Below are positions 4,142 to 52,420 of a stretch of 64,000 nt of DNA, piece by piece (positions within the stretch are counted from its first letter, which is position 1; each line of letters starts with the position of its first letter). The notes beneath the pieces were generated by a model. That model worked only from the letters and a program-made list of their open reading frames with translations, did no database searches and was not told where the DNA came from. Made by a program: the position numbers and the translations under genes. Location of the stretch: NCBI GenBank assembly GCA_038154245.1, contig JAYOZP010000008.1:1831-65830 (forward strand). Reading direction: 5' to 3'. Source of the stretch: Nitrospinales bacterium (GTDB taxonomy: Bacteria > Nitrospinota > Nitrospinia > Nitrospinales > JAJDAT01).

Positions 4142-4211
4142 TCTCCCTCTAACCGTTGGCTCTTTCTTTTAAAGCCGACGATAATCATTTCCAAGAAACC
4201 GGAAAATCGCT

Positions 4212-5363: not shown

Positions 5364-5374
5364 TCGATTAGTTC

Positions 5375-5863: not shown

Positions 5864-5865
5864 AA

Positions 5866-6465: not shown

Positions 6466-6510
6466 AAATTAGGTAGGAAGGAAAAAGGGATTATTCGACT
6501 AATGCGAAAC

Positions 6511-6831: not shown

Positions 6832-6858
6832 CTTAAATCCAATTTAAAATTTGTAGGC

Positions 6859-8547
6859 TTATCGAATAACCTTACCGCCAAAAATATCCAGAGCGTCTTG
6901 GATGATCTGAATATCGTTTTGGTAACTACCTCCATTATATTCCTTTAATTCGCCGTTGTCCCCATCAATATTTGGGGTCGCTACGGGTTCTTCAACTTTT
7001 AGAGTTTTTTTTTCAACCAACTCAAGGTTAATCGCAGATCCAAAAAACTTACCCACAGATTCTTTAATCAAATCAAAATTAGAAGGGTCTTTAATTCGTT
7101 GAAAGGTCATCGAGTCGCCCACGTTGATAGTAAGCTTAGCGGGAGATTCGAATTCAGCTCGGCAGGAACCTAAATAAAGTTTAAAATTCGGCTTCTTTTT
7201 ACAAACATCGGCAACAGCTTCGCGCCATCTCGATTCCCAATCGTCAATTTTTGGGGCCGACTTAAGCGATTCCGCAGGCTCTTCGACTCTATCGGCCACA
7301 GGCTCGGACTTAATCTCCGCCGGTTCAGAGTTTGGCTGAGATGGAACCGGTTTCGCTGGCGGTTGACTTACCGGCGCAGTCTGAACGCTTGGCGCTGGAG
7401 AGGGCAAATCATCTTCCATTTGATTAATCTGCTCGATCATTGCTCCAATATCGTGGTAAGGCCGGACGTCTGTTAAACGAATCGCCGCCATTTCGAATAT
7501 GAGTTGTGGCAACGGACTTCGCCGCATATCTTCTTCCGCTTTAGCCAAAACCGAGAACGCTTGTCGGAGTCGGTCCGTTTCCAATTTCTCGGCGAGCGCT
7601 TTAACCTCGGAAGTGTCGCGACCCGAAGCGTTAGACAAAATCTCCGCTTTTGCGCCGGATTGTATCAAAATCAAATCTCGCACAAATTCCATCAGGTCGC
7701 GGCAAAAAATATTGAGATCTTTTCCCGACCGAACGATTTCTTGAATCTGCTCGATCAAACCCGGAGCGTTGCCATCGGCCAAGTTTTTGCAAAACCTCTC
7801 CAAAACATCTTGAGATACCGCTCCTAAAACCGTTTCGACCGCTTCGGAATTGATTTCCGATCCACAAAATGCAATGGCCTGGTCCAAAAAACTCTGCGAG
7901 TCGCGCATACTGCCGCCGCCGCTTTTCGCGATTTGTCGTAAACTGGTGGGATCGACCGAAATACCTTCCTCTTTACAAATCAAACCCAACTGCTCGGCAA
8001 CTTGTTCTCGGGATAGGGCCTTGTATTCAAAACATTGGCACCGGGAAAGGATCGTTTCCGGAATTTTTATCAATTCAGTGGTGGCAAAAATAAAGACCAC
8101 TTTCGGAGGAGGCTCTTCCAGAGTTTTCAAAAGAGCGTTGAACGCGCTCTTCGAAAGCATGTGAACTTCGTCGATCACATAGACTTTATAGCGACAAGAA
8201 GTGGCCGAATATTTCACTTTTTCAATCAGTTCTCGAACTTCGGCGACGCCGTTGTTGGACGCCCCGTCGATTTCCGTAACGTCCATACTGCGTCCCATTT
8301 TGATCTCTTCGCAGTTGACGCAATTGTCGCAAGGTTCAACAGCGGGACCTTTTTCACAGTTCAACGCTTTGGCAAATACCCTAGCCGTCGTGGTTTTTCC
8401 AACGCCGCGCGCGCCAGAGAATAAGTAGGCGTGCGCTACACGATCAGATTTAATTGCGTTTTGCAGAGTACGGATAATCGGTTCCTGTCCGACCATTTGG
8501 GCGAACTTTTGAGGTCGCCATTTAAGAGCGGAAACCTGAAAATCCAT
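6859..8547 (-). CDS. dnaX: DNA polymerase III subunit gamma/tau
   Basis: Walker A GARGVGKTT, DEVHML, a zinc module CDNCVNC, and the SRC sensor motif. Confidence 0.93.
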   Translation of the reverse strand: MDFQVSALKWRPQKFAQMVGQEPIIRTLQNAIKSDRVAHAYLFSGARGVGKTTTARVFAKALNCEKGPAVEPCDNCVNCEEIKMGRSMDVTEIDGASNNGVAEVRELIEKVKYSATSCRYKVYVIDEVHMLSKSAFNALLKTLEEPPPKVVFIFATTELIKIPETILSRCQCFEYKALSREQVAEQLGLICKEEGISVDPTSLRQIAKSGGGSMRDSQSFLDQAIAFCGSEINSEAVETVLGAVSQDVLERFCKNLADGNAPGLIEQIQEIVRSGKDLNIFCRDLMEFVRDLILIQSGAKAEILSNASGRDTSEVKALAEKLETDRLRQAFSVLAKAEEDMRRSPLPQLIFEMAAIRLTDVRPYHDIGAMIEQINQMEDDLPSPAPSVQTAPVSQPPAKPVPSQPNSEPAEIKSEPVADRVEEPAESLKSAPKIDDWESRWREAVADVCKKKPNFKLYLGSCRAEFESPAKLTINVGDSMTFQRIKDPSNFDLIKESVGKFFGSAINLELVEKKTLKVEEPVATPNIDGDNGELKEYNGGSYQNDIQIIQDALDIFGGKVIR

Positions 8548-9159: not shown

Positions 9160-9212
9160 TTTTAAAGTTTCCTTAAAGAGCTTTTCAGCTTCTGAATAAC
9201 GTTTTTGGTTTT
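8961..9212. repeat. Perfect 126-bp tandem duplication (2 copies), one TPR unit each
   Basis: 8961-9086 and 9087-9212 are identical base for base. Diverged further copies flank them. Confidence 0.95.
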
Positions 9213-11449
9213 TGTAAATTATGTAATGAGGTAGCCACTTTAGGATGCTCTTCTTTCAACAACTTCTTCCTCATTTCTAAAGCTTTTTTATAAAGAGTTT
9301 CGGCTTCTGAATATCTTTTTAAGCCCTCATATGAGCTAGCCAAATTATTTAATGAGTCGGAAATATCGACATGCTCTTCGCCATAAATATTTTTCATCAT
9401 GGTAAAAGCTTCTTTTGCCAGTGGCTTTGCATTTTTATAACGACATTGTAAGTCGTATATTCTGGCTAAATCGTTAAGACTTCGAGCAACATCTTTATGT
9501 TGCTTGCCAAAGATATTCTTCCGCATTTGAAGAGAATCTTTTAAAAGCGATTCTGATTTTTCATAATTTCCTTCCCAACTTTCTAAAGCTCCAAAATAAT
9601 TCAAAGAACGAGCTAATTCCGGATGTTCTCCTAAATAACAATTTTTATTAATATCGTGGGCCTTTTCTAGAAATTTTCTGGATTCTTCATAAACACCTAT
9701 TTGCATCAAATAATATCCAGTCTGATTACAAATTTGACCCAGTTCAGGAATCTCCAAATCATTATCAGAGGTCAAGTCGGTTAAAGCTTTTACGGAAGGA
9801 AATAATTGTCTGCAAAGATACCAGTTTTCGAACTTTTCAGCGTCTGGAAATGCCCCATTCAAAGCTTTAATCGCTTTTTCCGCCCAAGATTTAGGATCTT
9901 GTAACCCATCTCGAAAAACTTGTTGTGCCAAACGATGAATGCGCAAAGATTCTCCCCTTTGATTTTCTTTTTGATCATTCGATAATGATTCTCCACTTTG
10001 GGTTCTTTTTATTAAAGAAAATTTGCTTGCCTTCGTTATTAACCCATTCCATTTAAATTCGTTTCCAGCAACCTCTTTCAACCTTTGACTTAAATGCTCT
10101 TTTCCTTCTTTAAAAATTATTTCTGGAATAGAATCGGCATCAAAAAAAGCGCATAATCGAATTAACTCCCCCGCTTCTGGACTCTCTTTTTCAGTTTTTT
10201 CCAGAGACATTGCAAAAACTTGGGCTACCGACTGCGGATAATCTTGCGTTTCGGGTTTTTCTTTTAAAAAATCTTTTCCAAAGGCTTCAAAAAGTTCTAA
10301 AAATTTTTCAAGATTTATCCCTGTTTCCTTTATATACGCCCCAGCTTGTTCAAGGGCCAGGGGCAACCCATCAAATTTTTTATTAATCTCTTTAGCATTG
10401 TTCAATGCTTCTTCTGGAGCTTTTTCAATTTCTTCCTTTTCACCAATCACTCCTGAACGTCTCAATAACAATAAAATACCTTCATCTTCCATTTCTTCAA
10501 CGTGAAGTTCATGGGCTTGCCCAGTTGCTCTACGACGCGTGGTTATTAAAACGCTTCCTAAAAAACCAGTAGGGACAAACTCGTTAAAAAACTTCATGTC
10601 GTCGACATTATCAAGAATGAGCAACCAAACTCTTTCTCTCTTCATCCAGTTTTTAAAGGAACTAAAAATAATTTCTTGCTCCTGAGATTTTTTTCCAGGT
10701 AGATCAATAGCCTCCGCAATTTCGGCAACGCTTTTCGCCAACGAAGCTTCATTTTCCGCGTTTATCCACAAAATTGAGTTGTAGGAATCCTTGTGGCGGT
10801 AGGCATACTCAACTGCTATTTGAGTTTTACCGATCCCCCCTAAACCCGAAATGGCTTGTTTTTGCGGTTGGGTCAACGCAGCCTTTTCACCCGGCTTCAA
10901 AAAATCTTCGATTTGTTTGATAAGGTTTTCCCGACCCGTGAAATATTCATTGCGATGATAGGGAACGGTGAAGGCTTTTGGTTTTTTGGGTAATTCGGAT
11001 GGAGCAGTGGGATTGAAACTGTTTAGATGATTTACTAACTTTTGAAATTCTTCAGGTCTATAAATATTGTAGATATTGCCCTGAGAAAGAATCGGCGGCA
11101 CATGCTCTCTATCTTCATCGCTAAGAGTGATGGGAATGAATTTTTCATTTTTTCCAAACTTGTCGTAAATTTCTTGTGAAATATATGTGGCTTCTCTAGT
11201 AACTCCTTTTCCTTCTTCGATTTCTCCTGAAAATATCTTTCCATACCTTTCGTTGCATACAGTAAGGACAAAATCAGCATCTTTGATTTGCTGCTCCATC
11301 CACTTCAGCCATCCTTGTACTGGAACAATTTCGTACTGATCAATCCAGCAGTTAAAGTTTTCTAACCGAAGGCGCTCGGAAAATTCATGAACATTTTTTT
11401 TATGCTCTTCCGAGTCATGGCTATAACTGATGAAGGCTTTTGTGGGCAT
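9185..11449 (-). CDS. STAND NTPase: N-terminal TIR-like domain, NB-ARC/AAA P-loop, C-terminal TPR array (candidate defence protein)
   Basis: AFISYSHDSEEHKK...FVLTVCNERY (bacterial TIR/SEFIR-like start). Walker A GLGGIGKTQIAVEYAY, Walker B WLLILDNVDD, and VLITTRRR. KLC-like TPRs (ARSLNDLARIY, LNNLASSY). Confidence 0.8.
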   Translation of the reverse strand: MPTKAFISYSHDSEEHKKNVHEFSERLRLENFNCWIDQYEIVPVQGWLKWMEQQIKDADFVLTVCNERYGKIFSGEIEEGKGVTREATYISQEIYDKFGKNEKFIPITLSDEDREHVPPILSQGNIYNIYRPEEFQKLVNHLNSFNPTAPSELPKKPKAFTVPYHRNEYFTGRENLIKQIEDFLKPGEKAALTQPQKQAISGLGGIGKTQIAVEYAYRHKDSYNSILWINAENEASLAKSVAEIAEAIDLPGKKSQEQEIIFSSFKNWMKRERVWLLILDNVDDMKFFNEFVPTGFLGSVLITTRRRATGQAHELHVEEMEDEGILLLLRRSGVIGEKEEIEKAPEEALNNAKEINKKFDGLPLALEQAGAYIKETGINLEKFLELFEAFGKDFLKEKPETQDYPQSVAQVFAMSLEKTEKESPEAGELIRLCAFFDADSIPEIIFKEGKEHLSQRLKEVAGNEFKWNGLITKASKFSLIKRTQSGESLSNDQKENQRGESLRIHRLAQQVFRDGLQDPKSWAEKAIKALNGAFPDAEKFENWYLCRQLFPSVKALTDLTSDNDLEIPELGQICNQTGYYLMQIGVYEESRKFLEKAHDINKNCYLGEHPELARSLNYFGALESWEGNYEKSESLLKDSLQMRKNIFGKQHKDVARSLNDLARIYDLQCRYKNAKPLAKEAFTMMKNIYGEEHVDISDSLNNLASSYEGLKRYSEAETLYKKALEMRKKLLKEEHPKVATSLHNLQKPKTLFRS

Positions 11450-11599
11450 CTCTTTTGGCGTTAAAAAAAATTATTCGATATAGGAGATTGGCTTAAGATA
11501 CTTAAACACTTAGAGGAAATCAATGGTTAATCGGCTTTGGTGGGTTGCAACAGAGCTAGAAAAGGTAGTCTAGGCTTCGAGAGCCTCAGCCTGACATTT

Positions 11600-35082: not shown

Positions 35083-36714
35083 TTAACAACCAGGCTTACC
35101 AGCGCCTCCGTTATCCAAAAAATCGGCTAATACAGAAACTTGTTTCGCTTGTTCTTCGTCTTCGATAATTTTTTCAATCTCTTCGTCGCTTTTATCAGCA
35201 AAAATTTCAAAAATGCGATCCACAACAGCGCCGCTACGAACGTCGGCAAATCTAGGATTTAACCGTCTTAACGCAGAAAACGGTATTTCACCTTCTAACA
35301 CTTCTTCAATAAACTCGGCTAAAGGGGATTCATTCGCTTCGGCAGCCGATACAGTTGTTGAGCGAATAGTGCGGTTATAACTTCCTCCATTTGTGATGAT
35401 ATTATCCGGATTATTTCCCGCTGGAGAAATTGCATTTCCAGTTATGTTTACATTTCCTCCTTCCGTTCTGATAAAACTATTTGAACTTAAATTGAAACCG
35501 CCGCCATCAGTTTGATCTGAATCGGCAACAGCGGTGAATGAACTATTAAATCCAGAAACATGGGCTTCAAAGCTCGACCCGGAAACAAAGTTGATATTTT
35601 CTTTGGCCGTTAGCGAAATGTTTTCATGGAATACTATATTAGCTCCAATTCCAAAAATATCGTCGCCAGAAATAAACTCAGTCTCCTTATGCCCTAAATC
35701 AACATCGCCGAAATTTATATTTCCTGAAGAATTATTTCCAACTGTTAATTTTTTGGCTCTTAATGAAATTATTTCATTTTGAGTAAGAACGATATTACAT
35801 CCAGTGGTCGCTATACAAATTGATCTATTCGATGAAAACGGCTTAATCGTAATCGTCCCAGAACTCGGACCGTTTATAAAAGAAAATGTATCCGTCGAAA
35901 TTGAAATGGGTACACCAAAGGTATCGCCTCCAGAACTTGTAAACCCGCTGAGCAAATCAATTTCGTTGGCAGTAACCGAAGCATTTCCTCCAGCGGTTGC
36001 GACAAAGATATTTGGATCTTGCTGATACTTCCCTGAAGCGGCGCTAGCGGAGTAGTTTCCCCCTCCAGTCAAAACATTACCTGTTAAATGCATAGAAGAA
36101 CCACTGAGATTCGTCGAAGTAGCGGACAAACTAACCGCTCCTCCTTTAGATTGAATCGGTCCCACAAAAACACCGCTAAAACCATTAATGCCAATAGTCC
36201 CTCCGCCTGAATTAATATCTTTCAATGCGGAAACGCTTCCACCTGTTGATGTTAAATCAATATTTCCGCCATTGGAATTGAGTTTTCCAAGAGTCAGACT
36301 CCCTCCCGCTTTGAAAGTAATAGCTCCACCATTCGTTCTAACAAGATCATTAGTATCGTTAAAAGTAATTGCGCCGCTTGTTGTTTGAAATCTTACAGAA
36401 TTATTTGAGGTTGTTTGTAAATTCAACTCATTATCGCTTAAATTTTGAATTGTGATCGTGTTATTCGCTTCCAAAACAATGTTATTTGTTGCATTTAAAG
36501 CTTCTAATGCGGATTCGGAAATATTAAAAGTTCCAGATCCATCTGCAAAAAGAACCACGTGATCGCCTGAAATTTGACCGTCGTCAGACGCCGAAGATCC
36601 ATCTTTTATTATGATATCGTCGGGATCTAAAAGTAAGGTACCGGTTTGTCCGTTAGCGGCTGTCGTAATAACCTCCCCATTAAAATCTAAAAATCGTTTT
36701 CCCGATACTTCCAC
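35083..36714 (-). CDS. TpsA-like exoprotein paralog 1, C-terminal part (same frame as 36910-37950, separated by one TAA)
   Basis: It begins within GGFVEVSGKRFLDFNGEVITTAANG..LLLDP, colinear with residues about 410 onward of the 951-aa paralog. The segment 36715-36909 is open in the same frame. Confidence 0.75.
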   Translation of the reverse strand: MEVSGKRFLDFNGEVITTAANGQTGTLLLDPDDIIIKDGSSASDDGQISGDHVVLFADGSGTFNISESALEALNATNNIVLEANNTITIQNLSDNELNLQTTSNNSVRFQTTSGAITFNDTNDLVRTNGGAITFKAGGSLTLGKLNSNGGNIDLTSTGGSVSALKDINSGGGTIGINGFSGVFVGPIQSKGGAVSLSATSTNLSGSSMHLTGNVLTGGGNYSASAASGKYQQDPNIFVATAGGNASVTANEIDLLSGFTSSGGDTFGVPISISTDTFSFINGPSSGTITIKPFSSNRSICIATTGCNIVLTQNEIISLRAKKLTVGNNSSGNINFGDVDLGHKETEFISGDDIFGIGANIVFHENISLTAKENINFVSGSSFEAHVSGFNSSFTAVADSDQTDGGGFNLSSNSFIRTEGGNVNITGNAISPAGNNPDNIITNGGSYNRTIRSTTVSAAEANESPLAEFIEEVLEGEIPFSALRRLNPRFADVRSGAVVDRIFEIFADKSDEEIEKIIEDEEQAKQVSVLADFLDNGGAGKPGC

Positions 36715-36909
36715 AAAACCGCCGTCGCCAGAATTTGCTCCACCTTTGGCTTCGATAGCTCCATAAAATCGAGTGGTGTCGTCGGCCCAGTAGATAACCC
36801 GGCCGCCATTGCCGCTGGTGATCGCATTGGCTTTAACAACTGTTTCGGAACCGCCAAAAGTTACCCTTGCGTTTTGTACCGATCCTTTGCCTTGGTAATC
36901 GCCGCCAAT

Positions 36910-37950
36910 TTAAACCTCGCCGCCGCCTTGGTTGCCGGAAACATCGACTGATGCCGTTCCAAACTGACCTACTTTTTCGCCCAAAATGTGAACGGTACCG
37001 CCAGTTTCTCCTGAATTGGTCCCTGAAGCATCCAATGTTCCTTCGTTCGTCGCGGTTCCATTTGGTCCCGCTTCTAAATATATTGCGCCATTCCTTTTAG
37101 AAACCGACTGCGCCCTGATAATTCCAGTATTATTCACTACGGATCTAACCATCTTTTGCGCCGTGTGCGCGGTCAATAAAACCTTTCCGCCATCTGCTTG
37201 AATCGTTCCTGAATTAAAAGCTCCGTTCTCGATGGTGTTGCCATCTTTATCCACAAACGAGCCATCGACAGGTTGAGTGATCGCAAAATTTATCAAACCG
37301 TCTCCGGAAAAATCCATTGTCGCCGCTTTACCCGAACCCAATGCTATTGAACCTAAATTCGCTGTTAACATTCCCCGGTTCTCGGTTCTTGCTCCCAACA
37401 ACCCGATATAATCTGAAGCGCTTATTTGACCTTCGTTAATTACAGAAGCTAACGGTTTAGACGGATCTTGAGTAAACCGATAATTACGATTCAAAAAATC
37501 CTGATCGGAAATCTGCAACGACGTCGCCATCAAACTACGTACGTTTATTATGGAATTCGGTCCAAAAAATACTCCCGATGGGTTTGTTATAAAAATTCTT
37601 CCGTTGGCGTTGAGCTTCCCTAAAATCGCCGTTGGGTCTTGACCAATGACTCTATTCAACGCAACCGAATTAGAGCTTGGCTGATTAAATTGTACCGATT
37701 CAGATTGGCCAATATTGAACCCTTGCCAATTGGTAATCATTTGGTTTGAAGATTGATTGATGACCATGTTTTGGCTATTGAGTTGTTGGATATTTCCATT
37801 CCCTCCGACTATTTGACCGTCTTGCGGCAAAGCAAATAACAAAGCAGGGAAATAGCTCATTAAAAAAACTAGAAACCCCACCCAAAATGGAACCAAATAA
37901 TAAGACAACGGTTTGATCGGTTTAAAATCTGTATTTATTTTCATCACCAA
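36910..37950 (-). CDS. TpsA-like exoprotein paralog 1, N-terminal part: signal peptide + haemagglutination-activity (TPS) domain; ends at premature TAA
   Basis: LLFALPQDGQIV...NQMITNWQGFNIGQSESVQFNQPS..ALNRV...NANGRIFITNPSGVFFG; about 90% identical to paralog 2. Confidence 0.8.
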   Translation of the reverse strand: MVMKINTDFKPIKPLSYYLVPFWVGFLVFLMSYFPALLFALPQDGQIVGGNGNIQQLNSQNMVINQSSNQMITNWQGFNIGQSESVQFNQPSSNSVALNRVIGQDPTAILGKLNANGRIFITNPSGVFFGPNSIINVRSLMATSLQISDQDFLNRNYRFTQDPSKPLASVINEGQISASDYIGLLGARTENRGMLTANLGSIALGSGKAATMDFSGDGLINFAITQPVDGSFVDKDGNTIENGAFNSGTIQADGGKVLLTAHTAQKMVRSVVNNTGIIRAQSVSKRNGAIYLEAGPNGTATNEGTLDASGTNSGETGGTVHILGEKVGQFGTASVDVSGNQGGGEV

Positions 37951-37977
37951 AAACTCAAAGATTTAAAATTTTATTAA

Positions 37978-40833
37978 TTAACATCCCGGATTAGGAGTAA
38001 CTTTATCCAAAAAATCATCCAAAACAGATACTTGTTGCGCCTGTTCATTATCTTCAACAATTTTTATAAACTCTTCCGGTGGTAAATCAGGGAAAAGGCC
38101 AAAAATAAGTATAGTTTCATCATCGATTGGAATATCGGGAAATAAAAATGGGTCCAAAATATTAGGAAACGGATCTTCCGGAAATGGAAACGGAAACGGA
38201 TCTTCCGGAAATGGAAACGGAAACGGATCTTCCGGAAATGGAAACGGAAACGGATCCTCTTCTAGAAAAAAAAATGGATCAAATGAATCTACACTGGCGA
38301 AAACTGTTGGTAGTTCTAATGTGGTTAGAACACCACCATTCGTATTAATTTGGCCAAAAACATCTACAAAATTACCGGTTAAATTGACATTACCACCTCT
38401 TGTGGTGATTGAACTGCTATTATCAATTGTAAAAACGCCGCCATTAAGTCCATCTGAGTCCGCTGTCACCGTAACAGACGCGCCAAAGCCCGAGACATGA
38501 GCCTCAATACTTGAACCTTTAGAATTGGAATCTATAAAAAAACTAACATCTTCTGCCGCGTCAAAGCTGATATCGTTATAAAAAAGGATATTAGCTCCAA
38601 GAGCCGTTATACTTTCACCAGAAATAAAATTAACCTTTTTTGGTCCTAAAATAACATCGCCTAAATTTATATCTCCGGTAAAAATATCTCCAATATTTAA
38701 TTTGGTGGTTCTTAAAGAAATTATCTCACTTTGGCTCAAATTGATAAAACAACCTGTTTTTCCAACACAAATTGAATCTCCTGGTATCGATGAAGCAATA
38801 GTGATACTATCGGTAGGTTCAGCGCCAGTATTAAACGAAGTTGAATAGGTATTAATGGACGAAGGAACTCCAAAAATATCATTTTTACCTGTAGAACCGC
38901 TAAGAAATTCAAAATCGGAAGCTAATAAGCTAACCGAACCGCCATTAGTTTTTACAAACATTGGGAAATCTTGAGTGTAGGTTCCCAAACCAGCATCGGC
39001 AGAAAAATTTCCACCTCCTGTCAAAATATTTCCCTTTACATTGATTCCAGAAAAAGCAAATAGATTGACATCGCCGCCTTTAGAATCAATACCCTTGGTA
39101 TCAATAGAAAACCCCGAGGTTAAATTTATATCGCCGCCATTCGATTTAAGCGTACCTAATGTCAAAGAATCGCCAGCTGAAAAAGTTATCGATCCTCCTT
39201 GTGTCTGAAGAACATCATTGGTGTCTTGAAAGGTGATTGACCCAAAACTAGCTTGTAAAGTTACGGAATGTCCAGATACTTGCTGAAGGTCCAACAAATT
39301 ATCGTTTAAATCTTGAATGGTAATACTATCCTCAGCTTGCAAAACGATATTGGTAGTCGAACTCAAACTTTCTAAGGTTAATTCTCCAATCTCGAAAGGT
39401 ACTAAACCTCCATCAGCTTCTAAAATCTCTCCAAGAGGGCTTCCTGTTGATATTTCTGGGTCGTCATCGGCAGTACCATTTACAATATCAATAAACTCCG
39501 GATCTAAGAGCAAAGTCCCGATTTCGCCATTCGCGGCTGTGGTTATAACTTCGCCATTAAAATCAAGGAATCGTTTGCCCGATACTTCCACGAAACCACC
39601 ATCGCCTGAATTAGCGCCGCCTTTAGCTTCAATCGCGCCATAAAACCGAGTGGTGTCGTCGGACCAGTAAATCACTTTGCCGCCATTGCCATTATTTATC
39701 GCGTTGGCTTTTACAACAGTGTCTGGACCGCCATAAGTAACCAGAGCGTTTTGAACCGTTCCTTTTCCCTGATAATCCCCGCCAATTAAAACCTCGCCCC
39801 CGCCCTGGTGGCCAGAAACATCGATAATAGCTTTGCCTAATTGCCCTACTTTATGACCTAAAATACGAACGCTACCGCCCGTCTCTCCTGAACCAGTTCC
39901 CGATGCGTCTAAAGTTCCTTCGTTTGTTGCGGTACCATTTGGTCCCGCTTCTAAATAAATCGCGCCGTTCCTTTTAGAAACCGATTGCGCTCGAATAATG
40001 CCAGTGTTGTTAACCACCGAGCGAACCATCTTTTGCGCCGTATGTGCGGTCAATAAAACTTTGCCGCCATCCGCTTGAATAGTTCCCGAATTAAAAGCAC
40101 CGTTCTCAATCGTGTTGCCGTCTTTATCTACAAACGAACCGTCAACGGGTTGCGTGATTGCAAAGTTAATCAAACCATCGCCAGAGAAATCCATCGTCGC
40201 CGCTTTACCAGAGGCTAAAGCAATCGATCCTAAATTGGCCATCAACATGCCACGATTTTCGGCGCGCGGTCCTAGCAAGCCGATGTAACCCGAAGCGTTT
40301 ATTTTTCCTTCGTTAATTACAGAAGCTAAAGGTTTCGAAGGGTCTTGAGTAAAGCGATAATTGCGGTTCAAGAAATCTTGATCGGAAATCTGCAACGACG
40401 TCGCCATTAAACTACCAACATTGATAATTGAATTTGGACCAAAAAACACTCCTGACGGATTGGTCACAAATATTTTTCCATTGGCGTTGAGCTTCCCTAA
40501 AATCGCCGTTGGATCCTGACCTATCACTCGATTCAATGCGACTGCATCGGCGCTTGGCTGATTAAATTGCACCGTTTCAGTTTGACCAATATTAAAACCT
40601 TGCCAGTTAGTAATCATCTGATTCGAAGATTGATTGATCACCATGTTTTGGTTGTTCGGTTGTTGGATATTTCCATTTCCCGCGACTATCTGACCACCTT
40701 GCGGCAGGGCAAATACCAAAGCAGGAAAATAGCTCATTAAAAAAACTAGAAGTCCAACCCAAAAAGGAACCAAATAATAAGGCCACGGCCTGAAAAATTT
40801 AGAATCTTTCTTACTATTCACAGTCAAAAACAT
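37978..40833 (-). CDS. TpsA-like large exoprotein paralog 2 (951 aa), intact
   Basis: Signal peptide and TPS domain as above, then the GGFVEVSG...LLLDP module, a beta-helix-like G/N/T/S repeat region, (PFPFPEDPF)n, and a C-terminal ...NPGC. Confidence 0.85.
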   Translation of the reverse strand: MFLTVNSKKDSKFFRPWPYYLVPFWVGLLVFLMSYFPALVFALPQGGQIVAGNGNIQQPNNQNMVINQSSNQMITNWQGFNIGQTETVQFNQPSADAVALNRVIGQDPTAILGKLNANGKIFVTNPSGVFFGPNSIINVGSLMATSLQISDQDFLNRNYRFTQDPSKPLASVINEGKINASGYIGLLGPRAENRGMLMANLGSIALASGKAATMDFSGDGLINFAITQPVDGSFVDKDGNTIENGAFNSGTIQADGGKVLLTAHTAQKMVRSVVNNTGIIRAQSVSKRNGAIYLEAGPNGTATNEGTLDASGTGSGETGGSVRILGHKVGQLGKAIIDVSGHQGGGEVLIGGDYQGKGTVQNALVTYGGPDTVVKANAINNGNGGKVIYWSDDTTRFYGAIEAKGGANSGDGGFVEVSGKRFLDFNGEVITTAANGEIGTLLLDPEFIDIVNGTADDDPEISTGSPLGEILEADGGLVPFEIGELTLESLSSTTNIVLQAEDSITIQDLNDNLLDLQQVSGHSVTLQASFGSITFQDTNDVLQTQGGSITFSAGDSLTLGTLKSNGGDINLTSGFSIDTKGIDSKGGDVNLFAFSGINVKGNILTGGGNFSADAGLGTYTQDFPMFVKTNGGSVSLLASDFEFLSGSTGKNDIFGVPSSINTYSTSFNTGAEPTDSITIASSIPGDSICVGKTGCFINLSQSEIISLRTTKLNIGDIFTGDINLGDVILGPKKVNFISGESITALGANILFYNDISFDAAEDVSFFIDSNSKGSSIEAHVSGFGASVTVTADSDGLNGGVFTIDNSSSITTRGGNVNLTGNFVDVFGQINTNGGVLTTLELPTVFASVDSFDPFFFLEEDPFPFPFPEDPFPFPFPEDPFPFPFPEDPFPNILDPFLFPDIPIDDETILIFGLFPDLPPEEFIKIVEDNEQAQQVSVLDDFLDKVTPNPGC
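38165..38258. repeat. 27-bp tandem repeat, about 3.4 copies, coding (PFPFPEDPF)n in paralog 2
   Basis: ggaaacggatcttccggaaatggaaac is repeated perfectly three times (38165-38245), followed by a partial copy. Confidence 0.95.
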
Positions 40834-40843
40834 AAAAATTAGT

Positions 40844-41881
40844 TTAAGGAGCGCACGTTGCCGCTACCGCAGCAAAAGGCACATTGACTGGCTTGGCAAA
40901 AGCCGCCCCGATATCCGGACCCGCTACGCTTACGAAGTCGGCTACAACGGAATCGCCTCCTCCCGCATTGGAATCCTGAGAACTTGAAGAATCTCCACCG
41001 CTAGGACTACTAGAACTTGAGTCAGAACTGGAACTGCCGCTCGATTGCGAAGTTGATTGCTGACCTGTGCCGCCTGAGCCTTGGTTAAACATAGAAGAAG
41101 GTAGGCTGGTTCCAATCCGGCCTAAAACGACAGTACTTATCGAATTAAAATTATTATTCGACATCGTCTGGGGAACTGTTGGCGCTTGTCCTTGCGGAAT
41201 TGTGCTGACGCTATTAGCTCCCACCAACTGATTACCCGCAATATTAGGATCGACATTGGAAGCGCTCATAGCTCCGGTCTTGTTGGCAACAATTGTTTTT
41301 GTGGCAGAGGAGCTAATAAAACCAAAGGTACCTCTAGACGATAAGTTTGCCGTTGGCGTTATAACCTTAAAACTCGAATCTTTATTTTTTTGGCTTTTAT
41401 TAATGATGTACATGGAAAGCCCTTTGGCTACATTGATCACTCCTTTTCGGAATTTTTGGGACTTATCCAATTGATAGGAACCTATAGACATGCGAGAGTT
41501 TGGTCCCAAAGCCAAAAGACTGTTGTCGTTAAATTTTATTTTTAATCGACTGCCTCTTTTTGTGCGGAAATTATCCGATGCGTAAACTTCTTGTTTGAAT
41601 TTAGCTTTTTGCCAAACCGCATCTGGATCAAAAGAAACTGGTTTAATACTTAATTTACCTGGAGCGGCCTTGGCTACAGGTTCAGAACCTCCCCCTGCTT
41701 TCATTTCCACGGTGCCAATGATTCCAATTATGGTTCCAATGGGTTTTTCTTCGGCAGCCCAGACAATCGACCCGAAATGTGAAACCGTAGATCCAAAATG
41801 GGAAACAAAGAGCGCAAAAATTACCGACCAAAACACTTTTAGACTAAAAATAGGACGCGAAAAGTTTGTGAAGTCCGTCAT
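40844..41881 (-). CDS. Secreted FecR-domain protein with Ser/Gly-rich tail (FecR-1)
   Basis: Signal peptide; GTVEMK...W..AKFKQEVYASDNFRTKRGSRLKIKFNDNSLLALGPNSRMSI and FKVITPTANLSSRGTFGF (FecR pattern); low-complexity C-terminus ending ATCAP. Confidence 0.8.
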   Translation of the reverse strand: MTDFTNFSRPIFSLKVFWSVIFALFVSHFGSTVSHFGSIVWAAEEKPIGTIIGIIGTVEMKAGGGSEPVAKAAPGKLSIKPVSFDPDAVWQKAKFKQEVYASDNFRTKRGSRLKIKFNDNSLLALGPNSRMSIGSYQLDKSQKFRKGVINVAKGLSMYIINKSQKNKDSSFKVITPTANLSSRGTFGFISSSATKTIVANKTGAMSASNVDPNIAGNQLVGANSVSTIPQGQAPTVPQTMSNNNFNSISTVVLGRIGTSLPSSMFNQGSGGTGQQSTSQSSGSSSSDSSSSSPSGGDSSSSQDSNAGGGDSVVADFVSVAGPDIGAAFAKPVNVPFAAVAATCAP

Positions 41882-42030
41882 TTTTCTCCCTCTATTAAAA
41901 AAAATGTCGAATAATTATTTATATTTAATTAAATTATTGTAAATTTAAACAAAAAAATCAAACTTATAATTTACGATTCAATCGCTTTTTAGTTTTATGT
42001 ACATTAATGATGCCAATTTCTCCAAAAAAT

Positions 42031-49392: not shown

Positions 49393-49719
49393 ATGGCCGG
49401 CAATGTAGTTGAAGTTTCCGACGCCGAATTTGAATCGTCAATTATTCAAAGCGATAAGCCCGCTTTAGTGGATTTCTGGGCGGAGTGGTGTCAACCTTGT
49501 AAAATGCTAGCCCCGACTGTGGAAGAAATCGCAGGCGAATATATCGATAAAGTTAGAGTTGCAAAAGTAAATGTAGACGATAATCCACAAACCGCTACCA
49601 AGTTTGGTATTCGCGGTATTCCTACGCTTTTGCTTTTTAAAGAAGGAAAAGTAGTGCAACAAATGGTGGGCGTTAAACCTAAAGGCGATATCACCAAAGC
49701 AATCGACGAAATTCTATAA
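49393..49719 (+). CDS. trxA: Thioredoxin (active site WCQPC)
   Basis: LVDFWAEWCQPCKMLAP and FGIRGIPTLLLFK; 108 aa. Confidence 0.93.
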   Translation: MAGNVVEVSDAEFESSIIQSDKPALVDFWAEWCQPCKMLAPTVEEIAGEYIDKVRVAKVNVDDNPQTATKFGIRGIPTLLLFKEGKVVQQMVGVKPKGDITKAIDEIL

Positions 49720-49730
49720 AATTGGTTTCC

Positions 49731-49760
49731 CCGGCTTAAAGGTTAATAGCCTTAAGCCGG
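49731..49760 (+). terminator. Hairpin after trxA
   Basis: ccggcttaaagg / ccttaagccgg form the arms around the loop ttaatag. Confidence 0.45.
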
Positions 49761-49843
49761 ATTCGATTCATCCCGTTAGATCTCAATAACCTATATCAGA
49801 AATTCCGTAGGGCTTAAAAAGCCTTCATCCTCTGGAGTTTACG

Positions 49844-50548
49844 ATGTCGAAAAAATTGGAATGCCTCAAAAACGTTTCTATTTTTTCGGGAATGACCGAT
49901 GCCCACCTTGAAGAAATCGCTTCAATCGCCTTAGAAAAAAAATTCAAAAAAAATAAAGTCATTTTTAATAAGGGCGATCGAGGTAATGTCTTGTTCATTC
50001 TCACCACCGGAACTGTAAAACTATCTCTTTTTGACCAATCCGGTAAAGAAATGATCTTAAAAATGCTTTACAAAAACGATTTTTTTGGAGAAATGTCGCT
50101 ATTAGACGATTATTTTCGTTCAGCGACCGTCACCGCTGTGGAAGATTCAAACGCGCTTCTAATTTATAGAAACGAATTCATGCGATTGATTCACGAGTTT
50201 CCAGGTATCGCCTTGGAAATGCTGAAAGTTTTCATTCATCGTTTAAAAACAAGCGATAAAAAAATCGTTAGTCTTACTTTTTTTGACGCCTTCAGAAAAG
50301 TAAGTTCTACAATCATTGATTTAGCCGAAAAGACGGGTCGTCAAGAAGGAAAACACACCGCTATCGACTTGACATTGACGCGCCAGGACATGGCCAATAT
50401 GATTGGCTTAAGCCGGGAAACGTTAACCCGTATTTTACAAGAACTGCATTTTCGAGAGATTTTGAACGTTAGTAGGAAGAAAATAGTCATTCTCAACCCA
50501 AAAGCCTTGGAAGAAGAAGTTCAAAACGCCCGGGTTCCAAAAATCTAA
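49844..50548 (+). CDS. Crp/Fnr-family transcriptional regulator (CRP-like recognition helix)
   Basis: A cNMP-binding domain (FFGEMSLL) plus an HTH with SRETLTRIL. R, E and R occupy the positions of E. coli CRP RETVGR. Confidence 0.9.
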   Translation: MSKKLECLKNVSIFSGMTDAHLEEIASIALEKKFKKNKVIFNKGDRGNVLFILTTGTVKLSLFDQSGKEMILKMLYKNDFFGEMSLLDDYFRSATVTAVEDSNALLIYRNEFMRLIHEFPGIALEMLKVFIHRLKTSDKKIVSLTFFDAFRKVSSTIIDLAEKTGRQEGKHTAIDLTLTRQDMANMIGLSRETLTRILQELHFREILNVSRKKIVILNPKALEEEVQNARVPKI

Positions 50549-50688: not shown

Positions 50689-51789
50689 GTGCTTATGTTT
50701 TCGAATATCTTACAAATTTTAAATTCGAATAAATATAAAAAGTGGACTTTGCTTTCATTTTGGATGTTGGTCCTCTCGCTAAGTTGGTTGGTCGAAGCCA
50801 AAGCGCAAGAAAAACCGGTTGGAATAATCATTGGCGTTATTGGAGAAATTCAGTATAGATCCGCAGCCGACGCTCCGGACACTCCTGTTGCCGGTAAAGA
50901 AAAACCTGGCGACACAAAACTTGTTTCTTTTTCTCCCTGGGAAAAAGTTAAATTCAAGCAACCCGTTTACGCTAAAGACGAATTCAAAACTTCAAAGCGC
51001 AGTCGTCTTAAAATAAAATTTAGCGATAATAGTCTGATGGCTCTTGGTCCCAATTCTAAAATGCAAGTAGCCAAGTATGTTTACGATAAAAAAAAGAAGA
51101 TGCGCCAGGGAGTGATGAAAATTTCTTATGGGCTATCGATGTATATCGTTAACAAAAGTCAAAAAAATAAACAATCCAATTTTCAATTGGTTTCTCCAAC
51201 GGCTAATTTAGCGGCGCGCGGCACTCAGGGATATGTAAGTTCGTCTGATAAAATCACTTACTTGGCTAACCAAGCGGGGGCGATGGACTCCTCTAGTAGC
51301 GATCCAAATATTGCCGGCAACCAATTAGTTGGCGCGATGAAAAAAAATTCTATTCCAGCGGGAAAACCGCCAACCCCGCCTACAAATTTATCAAATAATG
51401 AATTAAGCGCCGTTAGAAATGTTGTTATGGGACCGATAGGTATTAACCCTAACAACCCTATAATTAAAGACTTAACCCAAACCGCGCCTGTGCAAAAGAA
51501 AAAGTCTAAAGAATCCAAAAAAGACGATAAAGGCGGCGGCGGCAAAAGCGACTCCGATAGTAAAGAAGGCGATGGCGGCGACTCGGGTGGAGACTCCGGA
51601 GGAGACAGCGCAGATTCTGGCGGAGGAGATTCCGGCGGCGGAGGTGGAGATTCTGGCGGTGGAGGAGGCGGAGGTTTTGCCGAAAGTTTTACCGCAACGG
51701 GTAGCTCCGCAGGCGGTGGCGGCGGCGGAGATTTCGCTCCAGTAAATAATCCATTTTCCCCTGCGGCGCTAAGTTCCTGTTCCGGCTAA
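50689..51789 (+). CDS. Secreted FecR-domain protein with Gly/Asp/Ser-rich tail (FecR-2)
   Basis: Paralog of 40844-41881 (KFKQPVYAKDEFKTSKRSRLKIKFSDNSLMALGPNSKMQV; FQLVSPTANLAARGTQGY). The tail ends SSCSG. Confidence 0.8.
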   Translation: MLMFSNILQILNSNKYKKWTLLSFWMLVLSLSWLVEAKAQEKPVGIIIGVIGEIQYRSAADAPDTPVAGKEKPGDTKLVSFSPWEKVKFKQPVYAKDEFKTSKRSRLKIKFSDNSLMALGPNSKMQVAKYVYDKKKKMRQGVMKISYGLSMYIVNKSQKNKQSNFQLVSPTANLAARGTQGYVSSSDKITYLANQAGAMDSSSSDPNIAGNQLVGAMKKNSIPAGKPPTPPTNLSNNELSAVRNVVMGPIGINPNNPIIKDLTQTAPVQKKKSKESKKDDKGGGGKSDSDSKEGDGGDSGGDSGGDSADSGGGDSGGGGGDSGGGGGGGFAESFTATGSSAGGGGGGDFAPVNNPFSPAALSSCSG

Positions 51790-51806
51790 GGATCATTAAC
51801 GGTAAA

Positions 51807-52121
51807 ATGTTACGCATGTTAAAAAATTCTTTCTTAATCATTGTTTTTTCTATCTTTTCAGCGCTAAATCTAGCTTCTGCTCAGACAAAAATTCCTCCAG
51901 CAGCCGAATCGGGCCTTGCCCTCAAAATGCTTAAAAAATCACAACCCGGTCGCTGGGAACCGCCTCCTCAACCTCAACCAGAAGAATTAATAATTAGAGA
52001 AGACGAAATTACTTCAAAACCCCCTTCCCCATCTGAAATAAATAAAACGATAGAGTTGGAAATTACCTCTCCGGATAAAAAATCCACAGAAAACTCGTCC
52101 AATCGCGACAAAGAGAAATAA
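51807..52121 (+). CDS. Small secreted Pro/Glu-rich protein
   Basis: Signal peptide FSALNLASA|Q. I recognise no family. Confidence 0.45.
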   Translation: MLRMLKNSFLIIVFSIFSALNLASAQTKIPPAAESGLALKMLKKSQPGRWEPPPQPQPEELIIREDEITSKPPSPSEINKTIELEITSPDKKSTENSSNRDKEK

Positions 52122-52168
52122 TATTTAAGCGGGCCTATAATAATTCATATTTTTACTAGTTTGCTATC

Positions 52169-52196
52169 GCCTAGCTCCTAGTTTTAAGAGCTAGGC
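52169..52196 (+). terminator. Hairpin after the small secreted-protein gene
   Basis: gcctagct (52169-52176) pairs with agctaggc (52189-52196), followed by tctt..atttt. Confidence 0.35.
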
Positions 52197-52211
52197 TCTT
52201 AGCAATTTTGA

Positions 52212-52233
52212 ATTTTTAAAGATTCCCTTAAAA
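52212..52233 (+). promoter_or_regulatory. 22-nt near-palindromic motif, copy 3 (2 mismatches)
   Basis: atttttaaagattcccttaaaa, about 190 nt upstream of the giant gene. Confidence 0.4.
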
Positions 52234-52310
52234 GTTGAGAAAATTCTTCAGAAAGACCTGAAAAAAGACCCACCAAAAACGATTGAATTTTCTCAAAAAA
52301 ACTTTGCAAA

Positions 52311-52326
52311 TGTGACGTATCTCCTT
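52311..52326 (+). promoter_or_regulatory. 16-mer TGTGACGTATCTCCTT, copy upstream of the giant TpsA-like gene
   Basis: caaatgtgacgtatctccttacttttt, 95 nt upstream of TTG 52421. Confidence 0.45.
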
Positions 52327-52420
52327 ACTTTTTAACCAAAAAAGCCGTACAATCTAGAGACTACATTAAGGTCTTTTTTCTCAAATTGAGACGGGTTATC
52401 AATTACCGAGGAAACTCTTT

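What the first reader, a model, noticed from the sequence alone, without database searches (positions are those of the whole stretch)
35083..41881. FecR-domain protein + tandem TpsA-like exoproteins as one operon, with no TpsB transporter gene in 64 kb
The minus-strand genes are packed with gaps of 10 and 27 nt: a secreted FecR-domain protein with an S/G tail, then a 951-aa protein, then a paralog. Both large proteins begin with a signal peptide ending VFALPQ and a haemagglutination-activity (TPS) domain (NQMITNWQGFNIG, FNQPS, ALNRV, NPSGVFFG). That domain is the hallmark of two-partner-secretion passengers, which normally sit beside an Omp85/POTRA TpsB. No ORF in this window looks like a TpsB.

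The same FecR + TPS-protein pairing recurs at 50689-64000, so the association is duplicated rather than accidental. The two paralogs are about 90% identical over the first roughly 430 aa, diverge in the middle, and reconverge in the last roughly 25 aa.

FecR domains are textbook periplasmic sensor / anti-sigma modules, not partners of TPS passengers. I do not recognise this arrangement as a characterised system. It could be a distinct surface-fibre or secretion module in which the FecR-like protein is a chaperone, anchor or usher-like component.
Basis: partly seen in the sequence, partly recalled or inferred. Interest (0 to 1): 0.8.

Follow-up and report, generated by a model that had tools for sequence, protein, structure and literature searches.

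The report
Three-gene two-partner secretion module, transporter elsewhere
This is a transporter-less copy of a three-gene surface-fibre secretion module found only in Nitrospinota (outer-membrane transporter, periplasmic FecR-like protein, giant exoprotein); its transporter is encoded elsewhere, probably just past the window end, and the undescribed FecR-like partner may hold the fibre on the cell through a cysteine bridge.

Summary
There is no TpsB in the 64 kb.

Three things were missed:
- The second paralog has an in-frame TAA at 36907-36909, where seven homologues encode Leu.
- A conserved 104-aa ORF (51807-52121) copies the N-terminus of TpsB.
- The missing TpsB is probably an effect of where the window ends.

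In Nitrospinota genomes, 24 of 32 FecR-like genes with enough upstream sequence have a TpsB directly upstream, and 30 of 33 have a TPS gene downstream. The exceptions are the two window-type modules plus one borderline locus. In a related MAG, the ortholog of the window's giant passenger is followed about 1 kb later by a tpsB. By synteny, one is expected about 5 kb past the window end. Two related MAGs hold further complete triads on other contigs.

So FecR does not replace TpsB. It is a conserved third partner, and I found no paper describing it.

One new signature stands out. FecR-like proteins have a single mature Cys two to eight residues from the end. Complete TpsAs nearly always end in an unpaired Cys. 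I propose an intermolecular disulfide that anchors the fibre. This is inferred, not shown.

The parts
40844..41881 (-). FecR1. A secreted FecR-like protein with a signal peptide (cleavage predicted after VWA), a FecR-fold beta domain (about residues 44-255), a disordered Ser/Gly/Asp linker (257-309), and a conserved tail DFVSVAG...PVNVPF...ATCAP that holds the only Cys (C343).
   Evidence: Pfam FecR 2.1e-10. AF2 model has pLDDT above 90 for residues 90-250. Foldseek matches PupR CCSSD 6OVK and anti-sigma factor BDI_1681 4M0H at E of 5e-8 to 9e-8. Cys count. Family alignment.
37978..40833 (-). TpsA1. A 951-aa two-partner-secretion passenger with a signal peptide ending VFALPQ, a TPS domain at 53-307, 3x EDPFPFPFP repeats near the C-terminus, and a conserved tail QQVSVLDDFLDKVTPNPGC ending in an unpaired Cys (C951). 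C689 and C695 form a CxxxxxC pair.
   Evidence: Pfam TPS 7.5e-33. TIGR01901 4e-21. Cys positions. Tail conservation.
36910..37950 (-). TpsA2, N-terminal ORF (346 aa: signal peptide plus TPS domain). It is ended by the in-frame TAA.
   Evidence: Pfam TPS 1.7e-32. About 88% identical to TpsA1 over the first ~450 aa.
36907..36909 (-). In-frame TAA stop codon that splits TpsA2.
   Evidence: GGGEV*IGGDY. TpsA1 and six homologues in L003, L010 and L012 have Leu (TTA or TTG) at this codon.
35083..36906 (-). TpsA2, remainder (608 codons in the same frame). It has no TPS domain of its own and ends ...VSVLADFLDNGGAGKPGC.
   Evidence: Same frame as the upstream ORF. No Pfam family. Family tail and terminal Cys.
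41914..41943 (-). Best sigma-70-like promoter match upstream of FecR1 (TTTACA-18-AATAAT, 10 of 12). This is a consensus match only.
   Evidence: Promoter-like sites in this region are not enriched over shuffles.
49844..50548 (+). Crp/FNR-type regulator directly upstream of FecR2, syntenic in relatives. It is a candidate regulator of module 2.
   Evidence: Pfam cNMP_binding 6.6e-22 and HTH_Crp_2 2.3e-16. Synteny in L003, L052 and L053.
50689..51789 (+). FecR2. The second FecR-like protein (366 aa), with tail GFAESFTATGSS...DFAPVNNPFSPAALSSCSG and a single Cys (C364).
   Evidence: Pfam FecR 5.2e-10. 57% identical to FecR1 over the domain. Cys count.
51807..52121 (+). A 104-aa secreted ORF that is a stand-alone copy of the TpsB N-terminus (signal peptide plus IPPAAESGLALKMLKKSQP...PPPQPQPEELIIREDE).
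   Evidence: tblastn to TpsB N-termini in nine loci, E from 1.5e-8 to 5e-3. Conserved beside FecR2 in L003, L010, L012 and L014. dN/dS 0.13-0.19 over codons 1-67 at dS 0.7-1.0.
52420..64000 (+). TpsA3. A giant passenger of at least 3860 aa, cut by the window end, with a TPS domain at the N-terminus and DUF5649 repeats. By comparison with the ortholog in L051, about 1285 more codons, a ...GGGC terminus and then a tpsB are expected beyond the window.
   Evidence: Pfam TPS 8e-35 on the first 500 aa. DUF5649 5.4e-53. Colinear 66.6% match to L051. L051 gene order.

Best explanation
The locus at 35083-41881 is module 1 of four paralogous type Vb (two-partner) secretion modules in one Nitrospinota lineage. 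The family unit has three genes: tpsB (an Omp85-type transporter), a FecR-like gene, and one or two tpsA genes. Module 1 has lost, or never had, its own tpsB.

What is shown:
- The domain identities of all the proteins.
- The three-gene rule in relatives.
- The absence of tpsB from the window.
- The presence of tpsB-bearing modules elsewhere in related genomes.
- The C-terminal cysteine signature in both FecR-like proteins and TpsAs.

What is inferred by synteny: module 2 in the window (FecR2, small ORF, giant TpsA3) ends in a tpsB about 5 kb past the window end. The module 1 passengers would then be exported in trans by that transporter or another paralogous TpsB. Their TPS domains are 53-59% identical to the window's TpsA3 and to the passengers of the TpsB-bearing modules 3 and 4 in relatives.

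Proposed mechanism, which is inference only:
1. The Sec system exports the FecR-like protein and TpsA to the periplasm.
2. The TPS domain docks on the TpsB POTRA domains, and the passenger is threaded out and folds into a beta-helical fibre.
3. The conserved TpsA tail, with its single terminal Cys, stays on the periplasmic side or in the pore.
4. That Cys is oxidised to a disulfide with the single Cys in the tail of the FecR-like protein.
5. The folded FecR-type domain cannot pass the pore, so it acts as a periplasmic stopper on a long disordered tether and keeps the fibre on the cell.

This would be an intermolecular version of the disulfide-loop anchor of HMW1 and HxuA.
For: Domains:
- FecR and TPS hits pass the Pfam cut-offs.
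- The FecR1 AF2 model matches the PupR and BDI_1681 periplasmic domains at E of about 5e-8.

The three-gene rule:
- 24 of 32 distinct FecR-like genes with at least 1.9 kb upstream have a TpsB within 2 kb upstream on the same strand.
- 30 of 33 have a TPS ORF starting within 1.3 kb downstream.
- The genes are often separated by 0-60 nt or overlap.
- The TpsB-less cases are the window-type modules 1 and 2 in L003, L010, L012 and the window, plus L019, which has only 1955 nt upstream.

TpsB in trans:
- MAG JAJDAT01 has modules 1+2 on contig 32 and two complete triads on contig 25 (L010, L018, L025).
- MAG CAYFMN01 has the same layout (L012, L017, L034).
- The ortholog of the giant in CAYFMN01 is followed by a tpsB, with no FecR-like or TPS gene after it.
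- A published review states that some TpsBs export more than one TpsA (PMC5422565).

Cysteine signature:
- 136 of 145 subfamily FecR-like proteins have a Cys in the last 8 residues. Most exceptions are fragments.
- 127 of those 136 have exactly one Cys after residue 45, and 8 have three.
- 25 of the 27 complete TpsAs in the census end in Cys as the last residue and one ends ...GCS. Once Cys in the N-terminal signal region are set aside, the other Cys come as close pairs, so the terminal Cys is the odd one out.
- TpsBs have no conserved mature Cys.
- Controls: only 10 of 107 next-best FecR-domain proteins have a Cys in the last 8 residues. Only 1 of 86 DUF5649 homologues ends in Cys, and that one is the giant's ortholog.
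- The precedent of a C-terminal disulfide anchor in HMW1 and HxuA comes from the same review.
Against: - The tpsB beyond the window is inferred from one related MAG (66% aa identity). The window's own downstream sequence could not be fetched.
- MAG bins can mix genomes.
- No experiment or complex model links the two cysteines. They could form homodimers, or bind another partner or a cofactor.
- One FecR-like gene often serves two TpsA genes, so the stoichiometry is unclear.
- The test for module-specific similarity between FecR tails and TpsA tails was weak. Permutation p was about 0.016, driven by one low-complexity pair.
- TpsA2 carries a premature stop, so part of module 1 may be inactive in this genome.
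- It is not known whether the TpsA C-terminus stays in the periplasm in this family.
Confidence: 0.55

Rival explanations
1. The FecR-like protein is a periplasmic chaperone, pilot or gatekeeper. Its FecR-fold domain would bind the TpsB POTRA domains or the unfolded TPS domain, much as FecR/PupR binds the periplasmic signalling domain of its outer-membrane transducer. It would control or assist secretion. The terminal cysteines would serve something else, such as homodimers or cross-links in the extracellular matrix.
For: The fold matches the PupR C-terminal cell-surface signalling domain, which was solved in complex with an outer-membrane protein domain (6OVK). The gene sits strictly between tpsB and tpsA, often overlapping the end of tpsB. 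Accessory third genes are known in other TPS operons, such as bcpO, cdiC and HMW1C.
Against: It does not explain why the single C-terminal Cys is the most specific signature of both partners, nor why generic secreted FecR-domain proteins lack it. The match to PupR covers only about 141 columns, so the STN-like subdomain that contacts the transducer may not be present.
Confidence: 0.25
2. Module 1 is a decaying, non-functional duplicate. It has no transporter, one passenger is already hit by a stop codon, and it is kept only by drift.
For: There is an in-frame TAA in TpsA2. No tpsB lies next to module 1 in any of four genomes.
Against: FecR1, TpsA1 and TpsA2 are intact in L003, L010 and L012, with conserved order, conserved tails and terminal Cys, at 73-79% FecR1 identity. 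The TPS domains of the module 1 paralogs in the window and L010 are 88-93% identical. The TAA is one base change in one assembly and could be an error.
Confidence: 0.08
3. One reading: the FecR-like protein replaces TpsB as an usher, anchor or secretion component in a TpsB-independent surface-fibre system.
For: No tpsB in 64 kb. Module 1 lacks one in four genomes.
Against: The FecR-like protein is a soluble beta-domain protein with no membrane barrel. 24 of 32 family loci have a TpsB directly upstream. The giant's ortholog is followed by a tpsB. The passengers keep full TPS domains, whose known role is TpsB recognition (PMC5422565).
Confidence: 0.03
4. The FecR-like protein is a signalling sensor of the cell-surface-signalling kind. 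It would report the state of the TPS machine or the fibre to a regulator, for instance the Crp-type protein encoded beside FecR2.
For: It has a FecR fold. A Crp/FNR-type gene is syntenic upstream of FecR2.
Against: There is no transmembrane or cytoplasmic anti-sigma segment. The genes directly flanking FecR1 and FecR2 that were scanned include no ECF sigma factor or TonB-dependent transducer, and none is listed in the three triad loci. The Crp gene accompanies only module 2.
Confidence: 0.07

Closest known systems
Classical two-partner secretion (type Vb): FhaB/FhaC, ShlA/ShlB, HMW1/HMW1B
   Same: The passengers have a Sec signal peptide and an N-terminal TPS domain (PF05860, TIGR01901), followed by long repetitive regions. 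In relatives the transporter has POTRA_2 and ShlB domains. Cases of one TpsB serving several TpsAs are known.
   Different: A third gene, encoding a secreted FecR-fold protein, sits between tpsB and tpsA in almost every family locus. The module in the finding has no adjacent tpsB. All passengers end in a single unpaired Cys.
C-terminal disulfide anchor of HMW1 and HxuA (Buscher et al. 2006, as summarised in PMC5422565)
   Same: The cysteine chemistry sits at the extreme C-terminus of a TpsA. In HMW1 and HxuA, that cysteine chemistry keeps the protein attached to its transporter instead of being released.
   Different: HMW1 and HxuA have two Cys that form an intramolecular loop. Here there is one terminal Cys in TpsA and one in a separate periplasmic protein, so any bridge would have to be intermolecular. 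This was not tested.
FecR/PupR-type anti-sigma regulators of cell-surface signalling (PDB 6OVK, 4M0H)
   Same: The periplasmic beta domain has the same fold (Foldseek E of about 5e-8, about 145 aligned columns) and hits Pfam FecR.
   Different: There is no cytoplasmic anti-sigma domain and no membrane anchor; the protein has a cleavable signal peptide instead. No ECF sigma factor or TonB-dependent transducer gene lies alongside. The C-terminal half is a disordered linker plus a Cys tail rather than an STN-like subdomain.
Accessory third genes of TPS operons (bcpO, cdiC, HMW1C)
   Same: An extra gene inside a TPS operon that the passenger needs or uses.
   Different: These are unrelated folds and roles: a lipoprotein or cytoplasmic protein, an acyltransferase, and a glycosyltransferase. 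None has a FecR domain.
Leptospira FecR-domain surface proteins LipL45 and Lsa33
   Same: They are secreted FecR-domain proteins that are not anti-sigma factors. They give weak NCBIfam hits at E of about 1e-7.
   Different: Scores are 29-31 bits against cut-offs of 350-420. Those are lipoproteins, and TPS linkage is not known for them.

Membership tests
TpsA passenger of two-partner secretion (type Vb) | N-terminal TPS (haemagglutination-activity) domain | tested here: met
   PF05860: 114.9 bits (TpsA1), 113.8 bits (TpsA2 N-terminal ORF) and 121.4 bits (giant, first 500 aa), against a cut-off of 33.5. TIGR01901: 74.7 bits against 29.1.
TpsA passenger of two-partner secretion (type Vb) | Sec signal peptide ahead of the TPS domain | tested here: inconclusive
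   A hydrophobic N-terminal segment ending ...VFALPQ is visible in all three and is conserved in relatives. No signal-peptide predictor was available.
TpsA passenger of two-partner secretion (type Vb) | Cognate TpsB transporter encoded in the same operon | tested here: not met
   None in the window. None next to module 1 in L003, L010 or L012. It is met for the family at large (24 of 32 loci), and for module 2 in a relative.
TpsB transporter (Omp85 superfamily; POTRA_2 + ShlB barrel) | A gene with POTRA_2 and ShlB domains within the window | tested here: not met
   tblastn with four family TpsBs gives only a 40-aa N-terminal hit, to the small ORF (E=3.5e-4). Pfam scans of the ORFs around both modules and of most other large ORFs show no POTRA or ShlB domain; dnaX and argH were named from their translations only.
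TpsB transporter (Omp85 superfamily; POTRA_2 + ShlB barrel) | A tpsB just beyond the window end | not testable with these tools
   The window's contig could not be fetched past the giant gene. In L051 the orthologous giant is followed by a TpsB of 577 aa (ShlB 6.3e-22, POTRA_2 2.3e-12).
FecR-type anti-sigma regulator of cell-surface signalling | Periplasmic FecR domain or fold | tested here: met
   PF04773: 41.3 and 40.1 bits against a cut-off of 24. Foldseek matches 6OVK and 4M0H at E of 5e-8 to 9e-8.
FecR-type anti-sigma regulator of cell-surface signalling | N-terminal cytoplasmic anti-sigma domain and a transmembrane anchor | tested here: not met
   The conserved domain starts about 44 residues from the N-terminus, right after a signal-peptide-like segment with an AxA site. 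Pfam finds no other domain.
FecR-type anti-sigma regulator of cell-surface signalling | Adjacent ECF sigma factor and TonB-dependent transducer | tested here: not met
   The neighbours are TpsA genes, a ketoacyl synthase, a Crp-type regulator and a thioredoxin. None is listed in the three triad loci whose gene tables were returned (L004, L006, L008).
HMW1/HxuA-type C-terminal anchor | Two cysteines in the last ~20 residues forming an intramolecular loop | tested here: not met
   There is only one Cys in the tail, the last residue. The other Cys in TpsA1 and TpsA2 lie about 240-260 residues upstream as a CxxxxxC pair.
Nitrospinota TpsB / FecR-like / TpsA triad (family defined here) | FecR-like protein with a linker and a DFxxVNxPF...Cxx tail holding the only mature Cys, followed by a TpsA ending ...GC | tested here: met
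   FecR1 (C343 of 345), FecR2 (C364 of 366), TpsA1 (...PNPGC) and TpsA2 (...GKPGC).
LipL45 / Lsa33 (NCBIfam NF033165, NF047849) | Score above the curated cut-off | tested here: not met
   29-31 bits against cut-offs of 350 and 420.

The most novel reading that the evidence does not exclude
Nitrospinota use a three-component type Vb system. A periplasmic FecR-fold protein becomes covalently joined, Cys to Cys, to the C-terminus of the exported fibre and acts as its cell-side stopper on a disordered tether. A separately encoded copy of the transporter's N-terminal plug segment (the 104-aa ORF) would tune or gate a TpsB in trans. That would be a new way of anchoring and controlling two-partner secretion, and a new role for the FecR fold outside sigma-factor signalling.
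Probability: 0.3. Interest if true: 0.75.

Novelty: new variant of a known kind. Interest (0 to 1): 0.55.

Why it matters
- Two-partner secretion is usually presented as the simplest secretion route, with one passenger and one transporter. A whole phylum of marine nitrite oxidisers that always inserts a third, FecR-fold partner with a matched cysteine signature would add a component class to type V secretion.
- It would also give the FecR fold a role unrelated to iron signalling.
- The cysteine-pair hypothesis can be tested directly with three genes in E. coli.
- Nitrospinota carry up to four such modules, including passengers of more than 5000 aa. These fibres are probably a major part of their cell surface, and so of aggregation or particle attachment in the ocean.
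- There is a practical lesson too. 'No transporter in the window' was an effect of where the window ended.

Tried and rejected
Reaching the end of the giant gene:
- The metagenome scan with the last 500 aa in the window found only a 38%-identical locus that is itself one open 7369-aa ORF.
- A homolog search with 3370 aa timed out.
- A 1000-aa query returned no full-length giant; the longest hit was 1741 aa. It did yield P0057, which led to L051.

Fetching the window's own contig:
- Look-ups of FecR1 and the small ORF gave only short Logan contigs that break inside the passengers.

Relatives outside Nitrospinota:
- The profile search listed only the tight subfamily.
- The genome scan's five Caulobacterales-type hits (four Caulobacterales, one unclassified Pseudomonadota) are short generic FecR proteins with no TPS or TpsB neighbour.
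- The exhaustive HMMER run shows a gap after 46 cluster representatives.

Module-specific co-variation of FecR tails and TpsA tails:
- Permutation p was about 0.016, but one low-complexity pair carries it, so I treat it as inconclusive.

Operon signals:
- The promoter and terminator scan showed no enrichment over shuffles.

TpsB as the cysteine partner:
- Rejected. TpsBs have no conserved mature Cys.

Other points:
- My recollection that cyanobacteria carry FecR/CHAT/TPS/ShlB clusters could not be checked here and is not used.

Full report
**1. What is in the window.** On the minus strand, three genes lie 10 and 27 nt apart: FecR1 (40844-41881, 345 aa), TpsA1 (37978-40833, 951 aa) and a paralog at 35083-37950.
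- Pfam gives FecR for FecR1 (2.1e-10, 41 bits against a cut-off of 24).
- Pfam gives TPS for TpsA1 (7.5e-33) and for the paralog's N-terminal ORF (1.7e-32). TIGR01901 agrees.
- The paralogs are 80-100% identical over most of the first ~450 aligned positions, 26-59% in the middle, and alike again over the last ~40.
- The paralog is not one open frame. Codon 347 is TAA (36907-36909), where TpsA1 and six homologues in three related genomes have TTA or TTG. It is either a nonsense mutation or an assembly error.

**2. The second module.** On the plus strand lie a Crp-type regulator (49844-50548), FecR2 (50689-51789, FecR 5.2e-10), a 104-aa ORF (51807-52121), and a giant ORF from about 52420 that runs off the window.
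- The first 500 aa of the giant ORF score TPS at 8e-35.
- Its body is made of DUF5649 repeats.

**3. No TpsB in the window.** tblastn with four TpsBs taken from relatives finds nothing except a 40-aa match of the TpsB N-terminus to the small ORF (E=3.5e-4). The seven ORFs of 450 aa or more are unrelated proteins; five were scanned with Pfam and two (dnaX, argH) were named from their translations only.

**4. Organism and relatives.** FecR1 homologues are named Nitrospinota or Nitrospina wherever a name exists. A syntenic locus in a 1.18-Mb JGI contig (L003, FecR1 79% identical) has the same order, FecR / TpsA / TpsA / pyrophosphatase, and on the other side Crp / FecR2 / small ORF. Both of its TpsAs are intact.

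**5. The family rule.** More distant FecR-like homologues sit between a POTRA_2+ShlB gene and a TPS gene (L004, L006, L008). I scanned one genome per species with a profile of the FecR-like family and got 39 loci:
- 34 come from MAGs labelled Nitrospinota, including two labelled otherwise that are probably mis-binned.
- The other five (four Caulobacterales, one unclassified Pseudomonadota) hold short generic FecR proteins with no TPS neighbours.

I then searched all ORFs with my own HMMs for the three proteins:
- Of 32 distinct FecR-like genes with at least 1.9 kb upstream, 24 have a TpsB within 2 kb upstream on the same strand.
- Of 33 with downstream sequence, 30 have a TPS ORF starting within 1.3 kb.
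- The TpsB-less cases are the two window-type modules in L003, L010, L012 and the window, plus one borderline locus (L019).

**6. Where the transporter is.**
- MAG JAJDAT01 carries modules 1+2 on contig 32, and two complete triads on contig 25 (L010, L018, L025).
- MAG CAYFMN01 does the same (L012, L017, L034).
- The best hit to the last 1000 aa of the giant that lie in the window, P0057, ends ...QSTFVSSFTSNGSSSGGGC and lies at the end of CAYFMN01 contig 5.
- The window's giant aligns colinearly with that locus: aa 2517-3655 at 66.6% identity and aa 3663-3843 at 63.5%. Window position 64000 therefore corresponds to L051 position ~3926.
- There, the giant ends at 7782. After 970 nt comes a 577-aa TpsB (ShlB 6.3e-22, POTRA_2 2.3e-12). 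No FecR-like or TPS gene follows it.
- By synteny, the window's giant should end about 3.9 kb past the window, with a tpsB about 4.8-6.6 kb past it.
- This rests on one related MAG. I could not fetch the window's own downstream DNA.
- That TpsB is 60% identical to the module 3 TpsB and 47% to the module 4 TpsB.
- The TPS domains of TpsA1 and TpsA2 are 53-59% identical to the window's TpsA3 and to the module 3 and 4 passengers in relatives.
- A review states that some TpsBs export more than one TpsA (PMC5422565).

**7. What the FecR-like protein is.** The family alignment shows four parts:
- a signal peptide with an AxA site;
- a conserved ~215-aa domain;
- a variable acidic or Ser/Gly-rich linker;
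- a tail, DFxxVNxPF-x(6-8)-C-x-x.

The AF2 model is confident for residues 90-250 and disordered for 257-309. Foldseek matches the periplasmic domains of PupR (6OVK) and of the anti-sigma factor BDI_1681 (4M0H) at E of 5e-8 to 9e-8 over about 145 columns. The protein has no cytoplasmic or transmembrane part, and no sigma factor or TonB-dependent transducer gene beside it. It has the FecR fold but is not a FecR-type regulator.

**8. The cysteine signature.**
- FecR1, FecR2 and their homologues have exactly one mature Cys, usually third from the end and always two to eight residues from it.
- In the global set, 136 of 145 have a Cys in the last 8 residues. Of those, 127 have one Cys after residue 45 and 8 have three.
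- Of the 27 complete TpsAs in the census (full-length, with a stop), 25 end in Cys as the last residue and one ends ...GCS. Once Cys in the N-terminal signal region are set aside, the other Cys come in CxxxC or CxxxxxC pairs, so the terminal one is unpaired.
- TpsBs have no conserved mature Cys.
- Controls: the exhaustive HMMER search finds 46 cluster representatives at E<=1e-30, then a break to generic secreted FecR-domain proteins. Only 10 of 107 of those have a Cys in the last 8 residues, and 62 have none at all. Among 86 DUF5649 homologues of the giant from many phyla, only P0057 ends in Cys.
- Both tails also share a short F-x-x-x-F element upstream of the Cys. A test for module-specific matching was not robust.

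**9. Mechanism.** The architecture is well supported. This is a three-gene variant of type Vb secretion, and the finding is a copy without its own transporter.

The mechanism I favour is inference. The single Cys of the TpsA tail would form a disulfide with the single Cys of the FecR-like tail in the periplasm. The folded FecR domain, on a disordered tether, would then act as a stopper that keeps the fibre attached. HMW1 and HxuA are reported to be held by an intramolecular C-terminal disulfide loop, which gives a precedent for the principle but not for this form.

The main rival is a chaperone or gatekeeper that binds POTRA or TPS domains.

**10. The small ORF.**
- It is conserved beside FecR2 in four other loci.
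- It matches the mature N-terminus of nine family TpsBs.
- Its dN/dS is 0.13-0.19 over codons 1-67 while synonymous sites are near saturation.

It is therefore a maintained gene. It encodes a free copy of the segment that in FhaC-type transporters forms the N-terminal helix and linker. That assignment comes from general knowledge of FhaC and was not tested here. Its role is unknown.

**11. Novelty.** Six full-text searches found no paper linking FecR-domain proteins to TPS systems as partners. The only overlap is the PUMA3 signalling system of P. aeruginosa, a classical anti-sigma case. I rate this a new variant of a known kind.

Noticed in passing
window 36907-36909: An in-frame TAA splits the second TpsA paralog. 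Seven homologous genes have Leu (TTA or TTG) at this codon. It is either a real nonsense mutation or an assembly error.
   Followed up: partly
window 51807-52121: A 104-aa secreted ORF that copies the N-terminus of the family's TpsB (signal peptide, IPPAAESGLALKMLKKSQP, a Pro-rich linker, IIREDE). It is conserved in four other genomes, with dN/dS 0.13-0.19 over codons 1-67. Function unknown.
   Followed up: partly
window 52000-64000: The giant passenger gene is 46-52% G+C, against about 40% for the rest of the window. This could reflect the amino-acid composition of the repeats or a foreign origin.
   Followed up: no
window 9188-11470 (-): A 761-aa protein with SEFIR/TIR, NB-ARC and TPR domains. 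It is a STAND-type NTPase of the kind seen in conflict systems.
   Followed up: no
window about 38190-38240 (-): TpsA1 has three tandem EDPFPFPFP repeats just before its conserved tail. TpsA2 lacks them. The repeats also produce duplicate terminator-like hits in the scan.
   Followed up: no
window 49393-50548 (+): A thioredoxin gene (108 aa, read as having no signal peptide) and a Crp/FNR-type regulator lie directly upstream of FecR2. They are syntenic in L003, L052 and L053. The regulator is a candidate controller of module 2.
   Followed up: no
L051 7783-8754: The 970-nt spacer between the giant TpsA and tpsB in the related MAG holds two copies of a roughly 110-nt direct repeat (...GTTCTTRATGAGATTCTTCACC...).
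   Followed up: no
L051 2-7782: The orthologous giant gene is broken into three reading frames (2-3526, 3528-4757, 5044-7782). These are frameshifts from repeat mis-assembly or from real decay.
   Followed up: no
L004 7873-10053; L027 315-2660; L034 7681-10002: Module 4 TpsBs are 726-790 aa and carry a ~200-aa Lys/Glu/Ser-rich N-terminal extension that the ~580-aa TpsBs of other modules lack. In L004, L027 and L034 they overlap the start of the FecR-like gene by 13-61 nt.
   Followed up: no
L030 1793-7434: One locus has the order TpsA / TpsB / FecR-like instead of TpsB / FecR-like / TpsA. Its TpsA still ends in Cys (...QQHVC).
   Followed up: no
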